From Octopus vulgaris (lineage: Eukaryota), in the NCBI GenBank assembly GCA_951406725.2, contig OX597823.1, positions 25,420,001 to 25,484,000 of the forward strand: a stretch of DNA of 64,000 bases, in the 5' to 3' direction. Shown one piece after another: positions 1 through 64,000 of the stretch. Every line of letters starts with the position of its first letter. The stretch's first letter is position 1. The position numbers are program-made.

Positions 1-3000
1 AAAAAAAAAGATAAAAAATTACCATCCCGGACTGTAACAAAAGCTTTAGAAACTTTAATTAGATACAAAAATTCTTCTATGAAAGGATGTTTAGGTCCAA
101 GATTATTAGTCGTAATTCATTCCCAAAGGAAAATTCTCGTTACCAAAGACAGCAGTAATGAAACGTCGACCTCATGTTTGCCTCGAACCCACCAGATGTA
201 TATCGGAGGATAAAAGGAAGCCACATACTTAAAAATATGTTGAAGCTTCCATGATAATAAAGTTCTTTTCGTTCAAGATTGCACTCTCGGTGTATGAATG
301 CCAGAAACAGCCACTATAAATATATTCTAACCTAAATCTATAACTAGAATTGAAACATGCACTCGCTCAAAAGGGTCATAATAAACCTTAATGTCATGAT
401 AAACCTTAAAAATTATGGGACAAGCATTGTTGCTCAAAAATACTAGAATCACTATACGGTTTACATTCTGTGGCATCTTAAAACGAAAAGAGACGTATGT
501 GTGAATTACGATGTCACGATAATTATTAAATCGAATTCTTAATATAAAAATTTGAAAACGTTCAAAATATCTTTAACTTCGAATAAGTAAATTCATAATA
601 TAACTCTTCATACCAAAGTATATATAAAAAAACATATTTCACACTGCATGCAAATTACCATGATAATCTTTTCTACTCTAGGCACAAGGCCCGAAATTAC
701 CATGATAATAAAAAAAACTGGATTTATGATAAAGTTGAATCTATGCTATAATGGAAAAAGCTGCTTATTAATTAGGTAAGTAACAATTACTAAAAGTACT
801 AAAAGAAATATTTTTATGAATTCATGTTCAAGGAAATTTCCTATAATTCCGATTTCTCAAGTTTATTGAATTTTTAATTCCAATTTCTCGCAAATTTAAA
901 TATTCACTGCATCCAGTTCGTCAAAAATTTAAATATTCATTGCATTCAGTGCGGTGTATTCCATTTTCATTTGCAAAGTCACTCACTTTCTCTTTTAAGT
1001 TTTAATTCGCTATTAATGTATACGTAATGTAAAAACATTATTTATTGAATGAAAACTTTTTAAAATATACATAATTTTTAAATGCGGGATATCTGTGAGA
1101 GGAGTCTAGAAAGTCGGGTAATTACTGTTAGAAGACGAAGAGAAAAAAGCAAAAAATTACTGACAAGTACTCGAAACTTTCACTTTATTCACAGTTTCCA
1201 AACACAACTTCAACAGTGACACACACACGCATATACACACACACACAGACACACAACAATACACACTCGCGCATACACATAGACACATAAATGAAAGGCA
1301 ATTAATGTGTGTGCGTCCGTGCGTGTGCGTATGCATGCGCGCGCGTGTTGTTCACTGACAAAATTTCGCGTTGCATCGCTTTTGTGAAGTATTGTCAGTG
1401 AACAGGTCGTGGTTTGGAAGCGATGAGAATATTTTAATACATATGAAGTTTTAATGTTGAAGTGAAACTAACGGTATTTGTGTGTTCTTGAATGGTTTAC
1501 AAACATCTTCCGTGCTGAAATTGTTTTTGTTTTAGCACATGATTTCAGATCAAGTCACTTGCTATGCAAGTACATCTCCGTAACTTTTTAAAAATCACTG
1601 TGGTTAAATGCCAGCAATGACCTTCTCACGCTCTCCAATATTTTAATTTCTAAACAGGAACAATCAGGGGCAGGGAGTGGGGTTCATAATTTCTCAAATT
1701 TTATTTTTTATAGAATATAAATGTATTTATGGGGAAAAATACTGAAGAAATCAATATATGCGAGAATGATAAAGCGACAACGTGGGTTGTCTTTGGATGT
1801 GCCCCCCCAAAAAAACAACAGCCAAATCGCCCTTAAATCACTTTTCCCTCTGAAAATATTAACAATTTAAAAACTTTTTTTTACCGAAAATGCTCTTCTC
1901 GTGGTTTTGAAGTGCAAAAATAAAAAATGTTGGCCAAAATATGTCCAGAGTGGGATGATGAGGGAGTGTATAAAAAAAAGAGCTTTCAAAACCTTTTTCA
2001 TACAAAGATGCTCCCCCAACCCCATCATTTCAAAGGCTGTGGTTAAAAAAAATATGGGGAAAATCCCCGAAACACTTTTCCCCACAAATTTCTTTATAAT
2101 TGTAATCTATGCCATTTGAAAGGGATTTGTATAAAAATTCATTAAGAGATATCCATCCTCCTGAAAGTTATTATGGAACAAAGTCAGATTGTGTGAATTT
2201 TCTGAAACTCCTCTGTACACCTCCTCGCAAAAATTCTTTCCCATAAATCCCTATATATTCTAAAGCCACAGCATCTAAGCAGTATTTGTAGAAAAATTTG
2301 TTAAAAAGTATCCATTTTTCTGGATGTTATGAGGCAACAAAGTCGGGGGCGTATACATCTGTAGTAATGCCCTTTTATTTATACGATTTTTTCATTTCAT
2401 GTTTATTTCATTCATTGTTTGCAATGTTCTCTCTCTCTCTCTCTGTTACACACACTACAAAGCTTACAGATGGGCTGCTGAATTGAAATCTTTATGTTGC
2501 TTCGAGAAGGTAAAACTTGACAAACTGCTTCCCCCTCTGTTGTTGGACTACCGTGATGTTATGACTGTGATAAAATAATGAAAGCAATATTTACTAAGTG
2601 AGCACTATCATACAAAGAAATGATTAGACATAAAATACAAAAATTATTATAAATGGGAATCAAATGTGAAAATATTATGAAGTGGGTAGCAGAAAATCGC
2701 CGGGAGGGCGGTCTTTCTACTAGTCTATATAACAGCGAAAGTACGAAACTGAAATGATTATAAGCAAAGATAATTCACATTATGATACACATACTAATGG
2801 AACAGTTATGTGAATTAAACAAATTATTACTAAATTATTTTTGATTGATTACTTGTAAATGTAGAAAAATTATCATTCATAGATTGAATTATTGCGTAAA
2901 GATGACATTAGTATTTGTACACAATTGTTTTGTTAAAATTGAGTATACGATAATTTAACTTAATTAACTTTTAATATAACTTAATTTCGATGAACTAAAC

Positions 3001-63000: not shown

Positions 63001-64000
63001 TACGCTATCCGGACGTTCAATAAGGATGCGAAGCTATAATTGATACAGAGCAGGCAGTACATCGCTCCTATCTCCGTCTGAGAGAAAGAAAACTTAAAAA
63101 GACAAAAAAGAATTCGCTTCGTTAGTCTGACGTTTAATATTTTCAAATGGAAAAACGTTTGTTACCTTTATTGACTTAGCTCAAACTTTGACAGACACCT
63201 TTCCCTCAACCTATTTCTGGACAGGTACTAATAGTAATTTAAGCACTAGATGTATTCCCATTTTGCTGCAATACTTTGCTCCGTAGAACAACTAAAACTT
63301 TCACACAAGAATATTAGCTTATTGTAAAAGAGACAGGATGTTTTGTGACATTTATTTAGATCTACTTTTCCCTTTGAAAGTTGTGTCTTGACGATATTGA
63401 CTTTATTTTTCATTTGGAAAGTAATTCAAGGAACCAATACGATCGCCAGTACGAGTCCGTCGAATGATGTGACCTTTTGCTTATGTAAAAAAGTCCTTCT
63501 TTATGATTTGCAAAATACATCGAAATTTTCTTTTTCGTTCATCATAAAAAAGAATTAGATACGTTTTTGGAAATGATGCATTTTTCTGAAACGTACAAAA
63601 GCTTATTATTGGGGTTCGATGTAATCGACGTCCCTGCTTCCCCGAAATTGCTGGCTTTGTACCAAAATTGGAAACTATTATTATTTTTATTAACCTGCGA
63701 CGGAACGGCGTCCCGTCCAGGTGGGGAACCTATACGCCAAGGAAACCGGGACACCGGCCCTGATGAGCCAGGCATGGTTCGAGAAGGAACAAACAATTAT
63801 TATTATTATTATTATTGTTGTTGTTGTTAAAGCAGCGAACTAGCAGAAACGTTAGCACGCCGGGCGAAATGCGTAGCCGTATTTCGTCTGCCGTTACGTT
63901 CTGAGTTCAAATTCCACCGAGGTCGACTTTGCCTTTCATCCTTTCGGGGTCGATAAATTAAGTACCAGTTACGCACTGGGGTCGACATAATCGACTTAAT

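What the first reader, a model, noticed from the sequence alone, without database searches (positions are those of the whole stretch)
2595..63092. Hidden tandem cluster of two highly divergent SLC18B1 (vesicular polyamine transporter)-like genes
Seen in sequence: C-terminal exons ending in a stop (63092-42382) lie upstream, on the minus strand, of N-terminal exons (26791-2595). These must therefore be two separate head-to-tail genes. Most exons are largely invisible in the ORF track but have canonical splice sites and mutually compatible phases. Established knowledge: SLC18B1/VPAT is a single-copy MFS vesicular transporter in humans. Inference: this is a lineage-specific tandem expansion of a vesicular amine/polyamine transporter family, possibly with new substrates or new tissue roles (neural or secretory gland).
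Basis: partly seen in the sequence, partly recalled or inferred. Interest (0 to 1): 0.72.

Follow-up and report, generated by a model that had tools for sequence, protein, structure and literature searches.

The report
Two tandem octopus SLC18B1-like transporter genes
The window holds the back half of one octopus SLC18B1-like membrane transporter gene followed by the partial front half of a second copy, both from a fast-evolving octopus-only branch that public annotation already names, so it is a real but modest finding.

Summary
The core observation holds. Ten short minus-strand exons match public Octopus "MFS-type transporter SLC18B1-like" proteins (local tblastn E 1e-7 to 1e-31).

- **Gene A:** exons E8-E13 lie at 63092-42382 and end in a stop. 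Splice sites are canonical and phases fit.
- **Gene B:** exons E2, E4, E5 and E6 lie at 26791-15174. They differ from gene A's public N-terminal exons (71 of 80 residues identical), so this is a separate head-to-tail copy, not a scramble.
- **Corrections:** Gene B lacks recognisable E1 and E3. Splicing E2 straight to E4 hits a stop, so gene B looks incomplete or decaying.
- **Not hidden:** NCBI already names these genes in O. sinensis and O. bimaculoides. The O. vulgaris model that is identical in three exons does omit E8, E10 and E11.
- **Family:** the full-length paralogue P0008 folds as a 12-helix MFS closest to human SLC18B1. The clade is extremely derived, about 28% identical to its nearest outside relatives, and three of seven conserved VPAT residues are replaced non-conservatively.

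Function and expression are untested.

The parts
62994..63092 (-). Gene A exon E8 (33 codons, phase 0/0; transmembrane helix 8; matches P0008 aa 269-301)
   Evidence: tblastn to P0005, E 1.3e-13. 30 of 33 residues identical to O. bimaculoides P0005 and P0010. Acceptor ...ttaag| and donor |gtgagt. Omitted from the public O. vulgaris model P0006.
61579..61673 (-). Gene A exon E9 (31 codons plus 2 nt AA; P0008 aa 302-333)
   Evidence: 31 of 31 residues identical to P0006. tblastn E 3.4e-14. Splice sites cag| and |gtaagt.
55814..55909 (-). Gene A exon E10 (1 nt lead A, 31 codons, 2 nt tail TG; helix 10; P0008 aa 334-365)
   Evidence: tblastn to P0008, E 6.5e-14. 25 of 31 residues identical. Splice sites gcag| and |gtaagt. 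Not used in P0006.
47801..47875 (-). Gene A exon E11 (1 nt lead T, 24 codons, 2 nt tail GG; P0008 aa 366-389)
   Evidence: tblastn to P0010, E 1.3e-31, and to P0008, E 4.2e-7. 21 of 24 residues identical to P0010. Splice sites ttag| and |gtaagt. Not used in P0006.
45171..45264 (-). Gene A exon E12 (1 nt lead A, 31 codons, phase 0 end; helices 11-12)
   Evidence: 31 of 31 residues identical to P0006. tblastn E 2.6e-15. Splice sites gcag| and |gtaagt.
42382..42516 (-). Gene A last exon E13 (44 codons plus stop TGA at 42384-42382)
   Evidence: 44 of 44 residues identical to P0006. tblastn E 3.75e-26. Acceptor tttacag|.
26696..26791 (-). Gene B exon E2 (32 codons, phase 0/0; helix 2; P0008 aa 61-92)
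   Evidence: tblastn to P0006, E 8.1e-14. 29 of 32 residues identical to P0006 and 26 of 32 to P0008. Splice sites ctgcag| and |gtaagc.
20664..20823 (-). Gene B exon E4 (1 nt lead A, 53 codons; helix 4 with the Arg/acid pair; P0008 aa 119-170)
   Evidence: This exon found the family: 88% identity to XP_014770601.1 and 97% to P0007. tblastn E 1.9e-25. Splice sites atcag| and |gtgagt.
17955..18023 (-). Gene B exon E5 (23 codons, phase 0/0; helix 5 Gly/Pro motif)
   Evidence: 23 of 23 residues identical to O. sinensis P0007. tblastn E 1.95e-12. Splice sites ttcag| and |gtaagt.
15174..15261 (-). Gene B exon E6 (29 codons plus 1 nt A; helix 6)
   Evidence: 29 of 29 residues identical to P0007 and P0009. 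tblastn E 7.5e-18. Splice sites ttcag| and |gtaagt.
28895..29170 (-). GC-rich element upstream of gene B E2, part of the duplicated unit. Public gene models read it in different frames. It is probably not a constitutive coding exon.
   Evidence: 92 of 92 residues identical to the first 92 aa of O. sinensis model P0009. 65-83% identical to an internal piece of P0006 and P0011 in another frame. Absent from the full-length model P0008. Weak donor gttggt. No Pfam family.
2595..2748 (-).
   Evidence: Alignment score 35 to P0008, and 109 of 500 shuffles reach it. No Pfam hit for its ORF. Its phase does not fit E6.
49177..52321 (-). Degraded LTR retrotransposon inside gene A's intron between E10 and E11
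   Evidence: Pfam: rve/rve_3, Integrase_H2C2 2.5e-10, RT_RNaseH_2 4.3e-6, DUF7041 2.6e-17.
32259..34564 (+). LTR retrotransposon remnant in the spacer between gene A and gene B
   Evidence: Pfam: Retrotrans_gag 6.7e-4, RVT_1 9e-9, RT_RNaseH_2 1e-18.

Best explanation
The window, most likely from Octopus vulgaris or a sibling species, cuts through a tandem array of paralogous genes. They belong to an Octopus-restricted, very fast-evolving offshoot of the SLC18B1 (vesicular polyamine transporter, VPAT) branch of the major facilitator superfamily.

Gene A enters from beyond base 64000. Its last six exons (E8-E13, helices 8-12 and the C-terminal tail) are intact and in compatible phases.

A 15.6-kb spacer loaded with transposons follows. 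Then comes gene B, a second copy on the same strand. It keeps four intact exons (E2, E4, E5, E6; helices 2 and 4-6) but has no recognisable first exon or E3. As seen here it cannot give a full 12-helix protein, so it is probably a partial or decaying duplicate.

Shown:
- the exons, their order, splice sites and phases;
- that the two sets belong to different copies;
- that the family's best solved relative is SLC18B1;
- that the clade is highly derived.

Inferred:
- The array arose by local segmental duplication before O. vulgaris and O. sinensis split.
- Complete copies work as proton-coupled organic-cation antiporters of a 12-helix MFS fold. They keep the helix-4 Arg/acid pair and the helix-7 acid.
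- Their pocket has lost the spermine-contacting Glu171 and Trp384 equivalents and the Asp296 inter-domain bond. Substrate preference or kinetics should therefore differ from canonical VPAT.
For: Family and mapping:
- Exon E4 alone retrieves XP_014770601.1 'MFS-type transporter SLC18B1-like [O. bimaculoides]' (E 6.5e-19, 88% identity) and the O. vulgaris and O. sinensis relatives.
- All ten exons map in gene order to the 465-aa paralogue P0008.
- Splice sites and phases are as listed.

Two separate copies:
- Gene A's E9, E12 and E13 are identical to O. vulgaris P0006 at 106 of 106 residues.
- Gene B's E5 and E6 are identical to O. sinensis P0007 at 52 of 52.
- P0006's own E2 and E4 differ from the window's at 9 of 80 positions.
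- A third paralogue, P0011, lies on the same 118-Mb O. vulgaris contig as P0006.

Membership of the SLC18B1 branch (tested on P0008):
- Pfam MFS_1, 98.6 bits against a cutoff of 33.4.
- Best PDB sequence match is human SLC18B1 (9d7u), E 4.5e-26 over aa 28-425. VAChT scores 4e-4 and VMAT2 about 1e-3.
- The AlphaFold model has 12 helices, pLDDT 83 and pTM 0.79.
- The top three Foldseek PDB hits are the three hVPAT structures.

Divergence:
- Of 1482 library hits, only 4 are 78% identical or more. They are three Octopus proteins plus the unnamed fragment P0039. The next best hit is 28% identical.
- P0008 keeps 34 of 54 columns that are at least 80% conserved in 123 relatives. The relatives keep 40 at minimum, 49 at the median.
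- The clade's stem is the longest branch of the tree, 1.65 substitutions per site.

Gene B incomplete:
- E1, E3 and E7 peptides of three paralogues find nothing above the opposite-strand background. Best scores are 17-21 bits against 18-22.
- No E3-like splice-bounded ORF lies in the E2-E4 intron. The best score is 28, against 24-29 in control intervals.
- Reading E2 straight into E4 gives ATT GCT TAA.
- The O. sinensis model of gene B is only a 97-aa fragment starting inside E4.
Against: - No RNA evidence was available, so none of the junctions is shown to be used.
- The 5' half of gene A and anything 3' of gene B's E6 lie outside the window. They could not be fetched, because no eukaryotic genome collection was on hand.
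- Gene B's four exons carry no stop or frameshift and keep the invariant Gly/Pro residues of helix 5. That fits a recently functional or still functional gene as well as it fits a young pseudogene.
- The O. sinensis model P0009 joins the GC-rich element at 29170-28895 to an E2, hinting at an alternative first exon.
- Exon-level searches with window sequence against solved structures were weak. Part of E8 gave no hit. E4 hit SLC18B1 only at E 1.1. E5 hit a bacterial MFS at E 6.4. The SLC18B1 assignment therefore rests on the full-length public paralogue.
- The nearest outside relatives are unnamed library proteins, and the clade's placement in the tree is unsupported (0.32).
Confidence: 0.8

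Rival explanations
1. Gene B is a complete, working gene. Its first exon and E3 are either replaced by unrecognisably diverged exons or bypassed by an alternative first exon in the GC-rich element at 29170-28895. Its remaining exons lie beyond base 1.
For: - Its four exons are intact with strong canonical splice sites.
- They are identical or nearly identical to the O. sinensis orthologue, at 52 of 52 and 40 of 41 residues.
- Model P0009 starts in the GC-rich element, which is 92 of 92 residues identical in the window, and continues into an E2.
Against: - E2 and E4 are out of phase without an 80-nt-class exon between them, and none with family similarity exists.
- No E1 is found anywhere in the 15.6-kb spacer.
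- NCBI's O. sinensis model of this copy is a 97-aa fragment.
- P0009 is a mosaic. Its E2-E5 are those of another paralogue (41 of 53 and 14 of 23 residues identical to the window), and it lies on a 71.6-kb unplaced contig.
- O. vulgaris and O. sinensis are too close for exon identity to prove constraint.
Confidence: 0.3
2. One gene was scrambled by misassembly, or two uncollapsed haplotypes were placed side by side. There is really a single SLC18B1-like gene here.
For: - The two exon sets in the window are complementary (E8-E13 and E2-E6) and never overlap, which is what a rearranged single gene would look like.
- The region is rich in repeats.
Against: - The public O. vulgaris model that ends in the window's E9, E12 and E13 (106 of 106 residues) has its own E2 and E4, which differ from the window's at 9 of 80 residues. 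That is far more than haplotypes would differ.
- O. sinensis carries separate models for the two kinds of copy on one 109.7-Mb contig (P0007 and P0008).
- The window has no N runs.
Confidence: 0.03
3. The whole octopus clade is a set of decaying or non-transporting relics, and the annotation name reflects only ancestry.
For: - The clade has lost 20 of 54 strongly conserved family positions. These include five Gly/Pro residues from helix 2 to helix 3, in and around the loop between them, and Gly295 and the Asp296 equivalent after helix 8.
- It sits on the longest branch of the tree.
- Many public models are fragmentary.
Against: - P0008 is an uninterrupted 465-aa model that folds confidently into 12 helices (pLDDT 83).
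- All six gene A exons in the window are open with perfect phases.
- Helix-5 and helix-9 Gly/Pro motifs, Arg137 and acids at the 140 and 255 positions are kept in every copy seen.
- Copies persist in three Octopus species.
Confidence: 0.12

Closest known systems
Human SLC18B1 / vesicular polyamine transporter (hVPAT; PDB 9d7u, 9d7v, 9d7x)
   Same: - 12-helix MFS fold.
- Best sequence match among solved structures (E 4.5e-26 over aa 28-425 of P0008) and the best three fold matches (TM by query 0.72).
- Arg137 is kept. Asp140 and Asp255 are kept as Glu. Phe380 and Tyr284 are kept (read from the alignments, with residue roles from passages of PMC12049414).
   Different: - Only about 20-22% identity in the fold alignment.
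- Glu171 becomes Met or Leu, Trp384 becomes Val or Ile, Asp296 becomes Tyr, Glu83 becomes Asn, Met48 becomes Ala and Phe144 becomes Cys.
- It is multi-copy and tandem in Octopus.
Canonical invertebrate SLC18B1 homologues (e.g. unnamed library protein P0014, the best full-length outside hit)
   Same: Nearest relatives outside Octopus: P0013 at E 1.8e-46 and P0014 at 2.0e-45. Same length class and same domain.
   Different: - P0014 scores 247 bits (2.9e-72) against hVPAT and keeps Glu171, Asp255, Asp296 and Trp384.
- P0008 scores 95 bits.
- The octopus clade is therefore a derived side branch, not the ordinary orthologue. The species of P0014 is unknown.
Multi-copy SLC18B1/VPAT families in sponges and placozoans
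   Same: Lineage-specific multiplication of SLC18B1-type genes: Spongilla Slc18b1a/b/c (passages of bioRxiv 10.64898/2026.02.14.704838) and four Trichoplax homologues (passage of bioRxiv 10.1101/2025.04.18.649542).
   Different: - Different phyla and independent events.
- No sequence comparison with them was made here.
- The sponge copies failed to rescue tyramine-dependent behaviour in C. elegans cat-1 (VMAT) mutants. This shows that such paralogues need not carry monoamines.
SLC18A family (VMAT1/2, VAChT)
   Same: Same fold. They come next in both the sequence and the fold searches.
   Different: About 22 orders of magnitude weaker in sequence E-value (4e-4 to 1e-2). Considered and rejected as the home family.

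Membership tests
Major facilitator superfamily (Pfam MFS_1, PF07690) | Profile match above the curated cutoff | tested here: met
   The public paralogue P0008 scores 98.6 bits against a cutoff of 33.4. P0005 scores 60.4 and P0007 (the gene B orthologue) 36.7. The window's own ORFs do not reach it: 0 of 375 minus-strand ORFs of 40 aa or more, because the exons are 23-53 codons long.
Major facilitator superfamily | Twelve transmembrane helices in two six-helix bundles | tested here: met
   The model of P0008 has 12 helices, pLDDT 83 and pTM 0.79. 467 PDB matches at E <= 0.001 were counted, and all those listed are MFS transporters. This was tested on the paralogue, not on a joined model of the window's exons.
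SLC18B1 / VPAT | Closer to SLC18B1 than to SLC18A or other MFS transporters | tested here: met
   Sequence: 9d7u at 4.5e-26 against VAChT at 4e-4 and VMAT2 at about 1e-3. Fold: ranks 1-3 are 9d7x, 9d7u and 9d7v. The Atlas's best structural cluster is named 'SLC18B1-like', TM 0.82.
SLC18B1 / VPAT | The seven residues reported as highly conserved in 149 animal homologues: Y51, R137, D140, E171, D255, D296, W384 (PMC12049414, passage seen; its Supplementary Fig. 10 was not seen) | tested here: not met
   Read from the HMMER alignments and the exon translations. R137 is kept. Y51 to F, D140 to E and D255 to E are conservative. E171 to M or L, D296 to Y and W384 to V or I are non-conservative. So 1 residue is identical, 3 are conservative and 3 are lost. 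In 123 outside relatives the E171 column is Glu in 89%.
SLC18B1 / VPAT | Ordinary orthologue-level similarity (the paper's homologue set used >35% identity) | tested here: not met
   20-22% identity to the hVPAT chains in the fold alignment. 95 bits against 247 bits for the outside relative P0014.
SLC18B1 / VPAT | Proton-coupled uptake of spermine or spermidine into vesicles | not testable with these tools
   Needs reconstitution or cell assays.
Tandem gene cluster | Two or more paralogous copies adjacent on the same strand | tested here: met
   Gene A's E13 ends at 42382 and gene B's E2 starts at 26791, both on the minus strand. The copies are distinct. A third paralogue lies on the same O. 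vulgaris contig, but its position is unknown.
Tandem gene cluster | Each copy is a complete gene | tested here: inconclusive
   Gene A's 3' half is complete, but its 5' half is outside the window. Gene B lacks a detectable E1 and E3 and has an E2/E4 phase clash. Its E7-E13 are not in the window.

The most novel reading that the evidence does not exclude
Octopuses have evolved their own tandemly multiplying subfamily of SLC18B1-derived vesicular transporters. Its binding pocket has been rebuilt: the spermine-contacting Glu and Trp are replaced by hydrophobic residues and the inter-domain Asp is lost, while the proton-coupling Arg/acid pair and the helix-7 acid are kept. The subfamily would load a different cargo from polyamines into vesicles of a cephalopod-specific cell type. 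Gene B would show the array's birth-and-death turnover.
Probability: 0.25. Interest if true: 0.65.

Novelty: new member of a known kind. Interest (0 to 1): 0.35.

Why it matters
Vesicular transporters decide which small molecules a secretory cell can release. VPAT/SLC18B1 is the least understood of the SLC18 group. A cephalopod-only, rapidly evolving, tandemly duplicated branch with a changed binding pocket would be a natural experiment in how substrate choice evolves in this fold. It would also be a candidate for an unrecognised transmitter or secretory cargo in octopus.

More practically, the window shows that the public O. vulgaris model of gene A omits at least three intact exons (E8, E10, E11). 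It also shows that a second, partial copy downstream is not represented by any O. vulgaris protein found here. Copy counts and gene models for this family in octopus genomes therefore need manual curation before any expression or evolutionary study.

Tried and rejected
- **Whole-frame Pfam scan.** All 375 minus-strand ORFs of 40 aa or more gave no MFS hit and only transposon domains. Pfam cannot see these short exons.
- **Window exons against solved structures.** Part of E8 (28 aa) gave no hit at E <= 10. E4 hit SLC18B1 only at E 1.1. E5 hit a bacterial MFS at E 6.4. These are too weak to use alone.
- **Naming the nearest outside relatives.**
  - The listing of cluster members could not be run because the database was switched off.
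  - The third homologue search, with profile A1, scored only 8000 word-sharing candidates and returned no new named relatives. It gave one unnamed protein and one JGI 'SLC18 member 1/2'.
  - The species of P0013-P0159 therefore stayed unknown. I could not show whether octopus also has a canonical SLC18B1.
- **Missing exons of gene B.** E1, E3 and E7 peptides of three paralogues gave only background hits at permissive tblastn settings. A splice- and phase-constrained scan of the E2-E4 intron found nothing above control intervals.
Rejected. In one search I first tested the wrong frame, and I discarded that result.
- **SLC18A (VMAT/VAChT) membership.** Rejected on E-values.
- **Misassembly or haplotype duplication.** Rejected on paralogue differences.
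- **Other features.** Rfam and tRNA scans found nothing. Tandem repeats are only simple sequence and transposon-internal repeats.
- **Not run.** Complex prediction and the genome-contig scan were not used. The scan covers bacteria and archaea only, so it is irrelevant to an octopus locus.
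Full report
**What was checked first.** The window has no N runs and is AT-rich, with 28-48% G+C in 2-kb bins. A Pfam scan of every minus-strand stop-to-stop ORF of 40 aa or more gave no MFS hit at E <= 0.3-0.5, 0 of 375. It found only transposon remnants. I then listed minus-strand open segments bounded by good AG and GT sites. Several looked like pieces of an MFS transporter.

**Finding the family.**
- The 48 whole codons of the segment 20823-20679 were searched alone against the protein collection, allowing longer proteins. 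Three proteins came back, all Octopus:
  - XP_014770601.1, 'MFS-type transporter SLC18B1-like' of O. bimaculoides (P0005, 88% identity, E 6.5e-19);
  - a 'hypothetical predicted protein' of O. vulgaris (P0006, 85%);
  - an 'SLC18B1-like' fragment of O. sinensis (P0007, 97%).
- A second search with P0005 added a full-length 465-aa O. sinensis protein (P0008) and three further models, P0009-P0011.

**Mapping the exons.**
- Local tblastn of these proteins against the window and inspection of the boundaries give ten exons, all on the minus strand.
- Gene A: E8 63092-62994, E9 61673-61579, E10 55909-55814, E11 47875-47801, E12 45264-45171, and E13 42516-42382 including the TGA stop.
- Gene B: E2 26791-26696, E4 20823-20664, E5 18023-17955, E6 15261-15174.
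- Exon numbers follow P0008, and every exon has an AG acceptor and a GT donor.
- In gene A the leftover bases fit. E9 ends with AA and E10 starts with A. E10 ends with TG and E11 starts with T. E11 ends with GG and E12 starts with A. In each case P0008 or P0006 has the residue that those three bases would encode.
Everything said about the whole protein comes from the public paralogue P0008.

**Two genes, not one.**
- P0005 and P0008 carry homologues of both exon sets in one protein in the normal order, E2-E6 before E8-E13. In the window the E8-E13 set lies 5' of the E2-E6 set on the coding strand, so the two sets cannot belong to one transcript in normal order.
- Gene A's E9, E12 and E13 are identical to O. 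vulgaris P0006 at 106 of 106 residues. P0006's own E2 and E4 differ from the window's E2 and E4, at 29 of 32 and 42 of 48 identical.
- Gene B's E5 and E6 are identical to O. sinensis P0007 at 52 of 52, and E4 at 40 of the 41 residues that P0007 covers.
- Gene A therefore has its own N-terminal exons upstream of the window, and gene B is a distinct paralogue with its own orthologue in the sibling species. This argues against a scrambled single gene and against uncollapsed haplotypes.
- A third paralogue (P0011 in O. vulgaris, P0008 in O. sinensis) lies on the same large contigs. Its distance from this window is unknown.
- A GC-rich element at 29170-28895, upstream of gene B's E2, also has copies in the P0006 and P0011 models (65-83% identity, in another frame). 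The duplicated unit therefore included non-coding DNA.

- The last claimed exon, ending at 2595, has an acceptor and a donor. Its peptide scores 35 against P0008, and 109 of 500 shuffles do as well. True exons score 82-135 against shuffle maxima of 41-47. Its phase also does not follow from E6.
- Gene B has gaps. Peptides for E1, E3 and E7 from three paralogues find nothing on the minus strand above what the plus strand gives, 17-21 bits against 18-22. A scan of the E2-E4 intron for any splice-bounded open segment of the required phase found no family resemblance. The best score was 28, against 24-29 in 20 control intervals.
- Because E2 ends in phase 0 and E4 begins with one leftover base, direct splicing reads ATT GCT TAA. 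NCBI's O. sinensis model of this copy is a 97-aa fragment that starts at a Met inside E4.
- E7-E13 of gene B may lie beyond base 1. The 15 kb after E6 contain an LTR retrotransposon remnant (5093-7550) and no family exons.
- I therefore read gene B as a partial or decaying duplicate. I hold this at about 0.55-0.6, because its four exons are undamaged.

**'Hidden' is only half true.**
- The genes are named in public annotation.
- The O. vulgaris model P0006 does jump from E4 to E9 and from E9 to E12. It leaves out E8, E10 and E11, which are intact in the window.
- No O. vulgaris protein covering gene B's E4 was returned.

**What family it is.**
- P0008 matches Pfam MFS_1 (98.6 bits).
- Among solved structures its best sequence match by far is human SLC18B1 (9d7u), E 4.5e-26 over residues 28-425. 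VAChT scores 4e-4 and VMAT2 about 1e-3.
- An AlphaFold model built with 29 relatives has 12 helices, pLDDT 83 and pTM 0.79. Its three best PDB fold matches are the three hVPAT structures, followed by VMAT2, NorA and VAChT.
- The ESM Atlas lists an arthropod 'SLC18B1-like' cluster as the nearest structure (a lead only).

**How derived it is.**
- An exhaustive phmmer search of 1.84 billion representatives found 1482 relatives at E <= 1e-3. Only four (P0005, P0006, P0007, P0039) are 78% identical or more. The first three are Octopus proteins and P0039 is an unnamed fragment. The next best hit is 28% identical.
- The best full-length outside relative, P0014, scores 247 bits against hVPAT, where P0008 scores 95.
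- In an alignment with 123 outside relatives of 400-700 aa, 54 columns are at least 80% conserved. P0008 keeps 34 of them and P0005 keeps 30 of the 46 it covers. The relatives keep 40-54, with a median of 49. The columns were defined on the relatives, which favours them slightly.
- In a FastTree of the 125 proteins, the octopus stem is the longest branch, 1.65 substitutions per site. Its position is unresolved (support 0.32).

**Mechanistic reading.**
- I read passages, not the whole text or supplements, of the hVPAT structure paper PMC12049414.
  - It names E171 and D255 as salt-bridge partners of spermine, and Y51 and W384 as further contacts.
  - The R137-D140 pair is a pH-sensitive switch. 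The N162-D296 bond stabilises the lumen-facing state.
  - Y51, R137, D140, E171, D255, D296 and W384 are reported as highly conserved in 149 animal homologues.
- From those passages I inferred that PDB chain numbering equals hVPAT numbering plus 206. I then read the equivalents off the alignments and the exon translations.
  - R137 is kept (gene B E4).
  - D140 becomes Glu (gene B E4).
  - D255 becomes Glu in all five public models that contain E7. That exon is not in the window.
  - Y51 becomes Phe (E1, public models only).
  - E171 becomes Leu in gene B E5 and Met in P0008.
  - D296 becomes Tyr (gene A E8).
  - W384 becomes Ile in gene A E11 and Val in P0008.
  - E83 becomes Asn (gene B E2). 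That position is not conserved in P0014 either.
- The proton-switch elements and the family-wide helix-7 acid survive. Two spermine contacts and the inter-domain Asp do not.
- My inference is that complete copies are still proton-coupled cation antiporters with changed substrate preference or kinetics. A loss of transport function cannot be excluded.

**Literature.**
- Full-text searches found no paper with both 'SLC18B1' and 'cephalopod' (0 papers).
- Two papers hold both 'SLC18B1' and 'octopus'. In the passages I read, one only lists an oyster Slc18b1 gene in a table. The other mentions VPAT homologues in non-bilaterians and uses the O. vulgaris proteome for GPCRs.
- Multi-copy SLC18B1 families are on record for a sponge (three copies) and Trichoplax (four).
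- Subscription journals are not covered by these searches.

**What stayed unchecked.**
- The flanks of the window, because no eukaryotic genome collection was available.
- Any RNA evidence.
- The species and names of the outside relatives. could not be made and one search added nothing.
- dN/dS, because there is no DNA for the other copies.
- Whether octopus also has a canonical SLC18B1.
- The closed metagenome and viral collections, which are of no obvious relevance here.

**Verdict.** The finding is real and mostly correctly read. It is a tandem pair, part of an array of at least three copies, of Octopus-specific and highly derived SLC18B1-like MFS genes. Two corrections apply: one false exon and an incomplete second copy. 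The family assignment already exists in public annotation. I score interest at 0.35 and rate novelty as a new member of a known kind.

Noticed in passing
window 5093-7550 (-) and 49177-52321 (-): Two degraded LTR-retrotransposon remnants of similar make-up. The first has DUF7041, RVP, RVT_1 and RT_RNaseH. The second has DUF7041, RT_RNaseH_2, Integrase_H2C2 and rve. Both are broken into many short ORFs. The second sits in gene A's E10-E11 intron.
   Followed up: partly
window 32259-34564 (+), 30083-30265 (-), 39519-39869 (-): The 15.6-kb spacer between the two genes carries three transposon fragments: a plus-strand LTR element (gag, RVT_1, RNase H), a mariner transposase fragment (Transposase_1, 1e-9) and a further RVT_1 fragment (1.2e-10).
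   Followed up: partly
window 24484-25353 (-): The longest ORF of the window (290 aa) lies in gene B's E2-E4 intron. It is very rich in Asn and Ser and has a more ordinary C-terminal 90 residues. It has no Pfam family. By recall only, its tail resembles ORFs of repetitive elements common in marine invertebrates. This was not tested.
   Followed up: partly
window 28718-29242 (-): A GC-rich stretch is open in more than one frame. Three public gene models translate it differently: as the first exon in P0009 and as an internal Arg-rich exon in P0006 and P0011. The full-length model P0008 skips it. It could be a CpG-island-like promoter or a repeat shared by all copies.
   Followed up: partly
window 47876-47991 (-): The O. 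bimaculoides model P0010 reads through the intron just upstream of E11. Its translation is 84% identical to the window over 64 residues, including E11. That model lacks the E10 helix. This is probably a gene-model error rather than an alternative exon.
   Followed up: no
protein P0009 (O. sinensis, 71.6-kb contig), compared with window 29170-15174: P0009 is a mosaic. Its first 92 residues and its E6 are identical to gene B of the window. Its E2-E5 are those of the other paralogue, P0008. This points to gene conversion between copies, a further copy, or a collapsed assembly in O. sinensis.
   Followed up: no
window 9043-9646, 11077-11294, 45353-45499: Long simple repeats: (AT)n of 604 and 218 bp, and (AAT)49 lying 89 bp upstream of gene A's E12 acceptor.
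   Followed up: no
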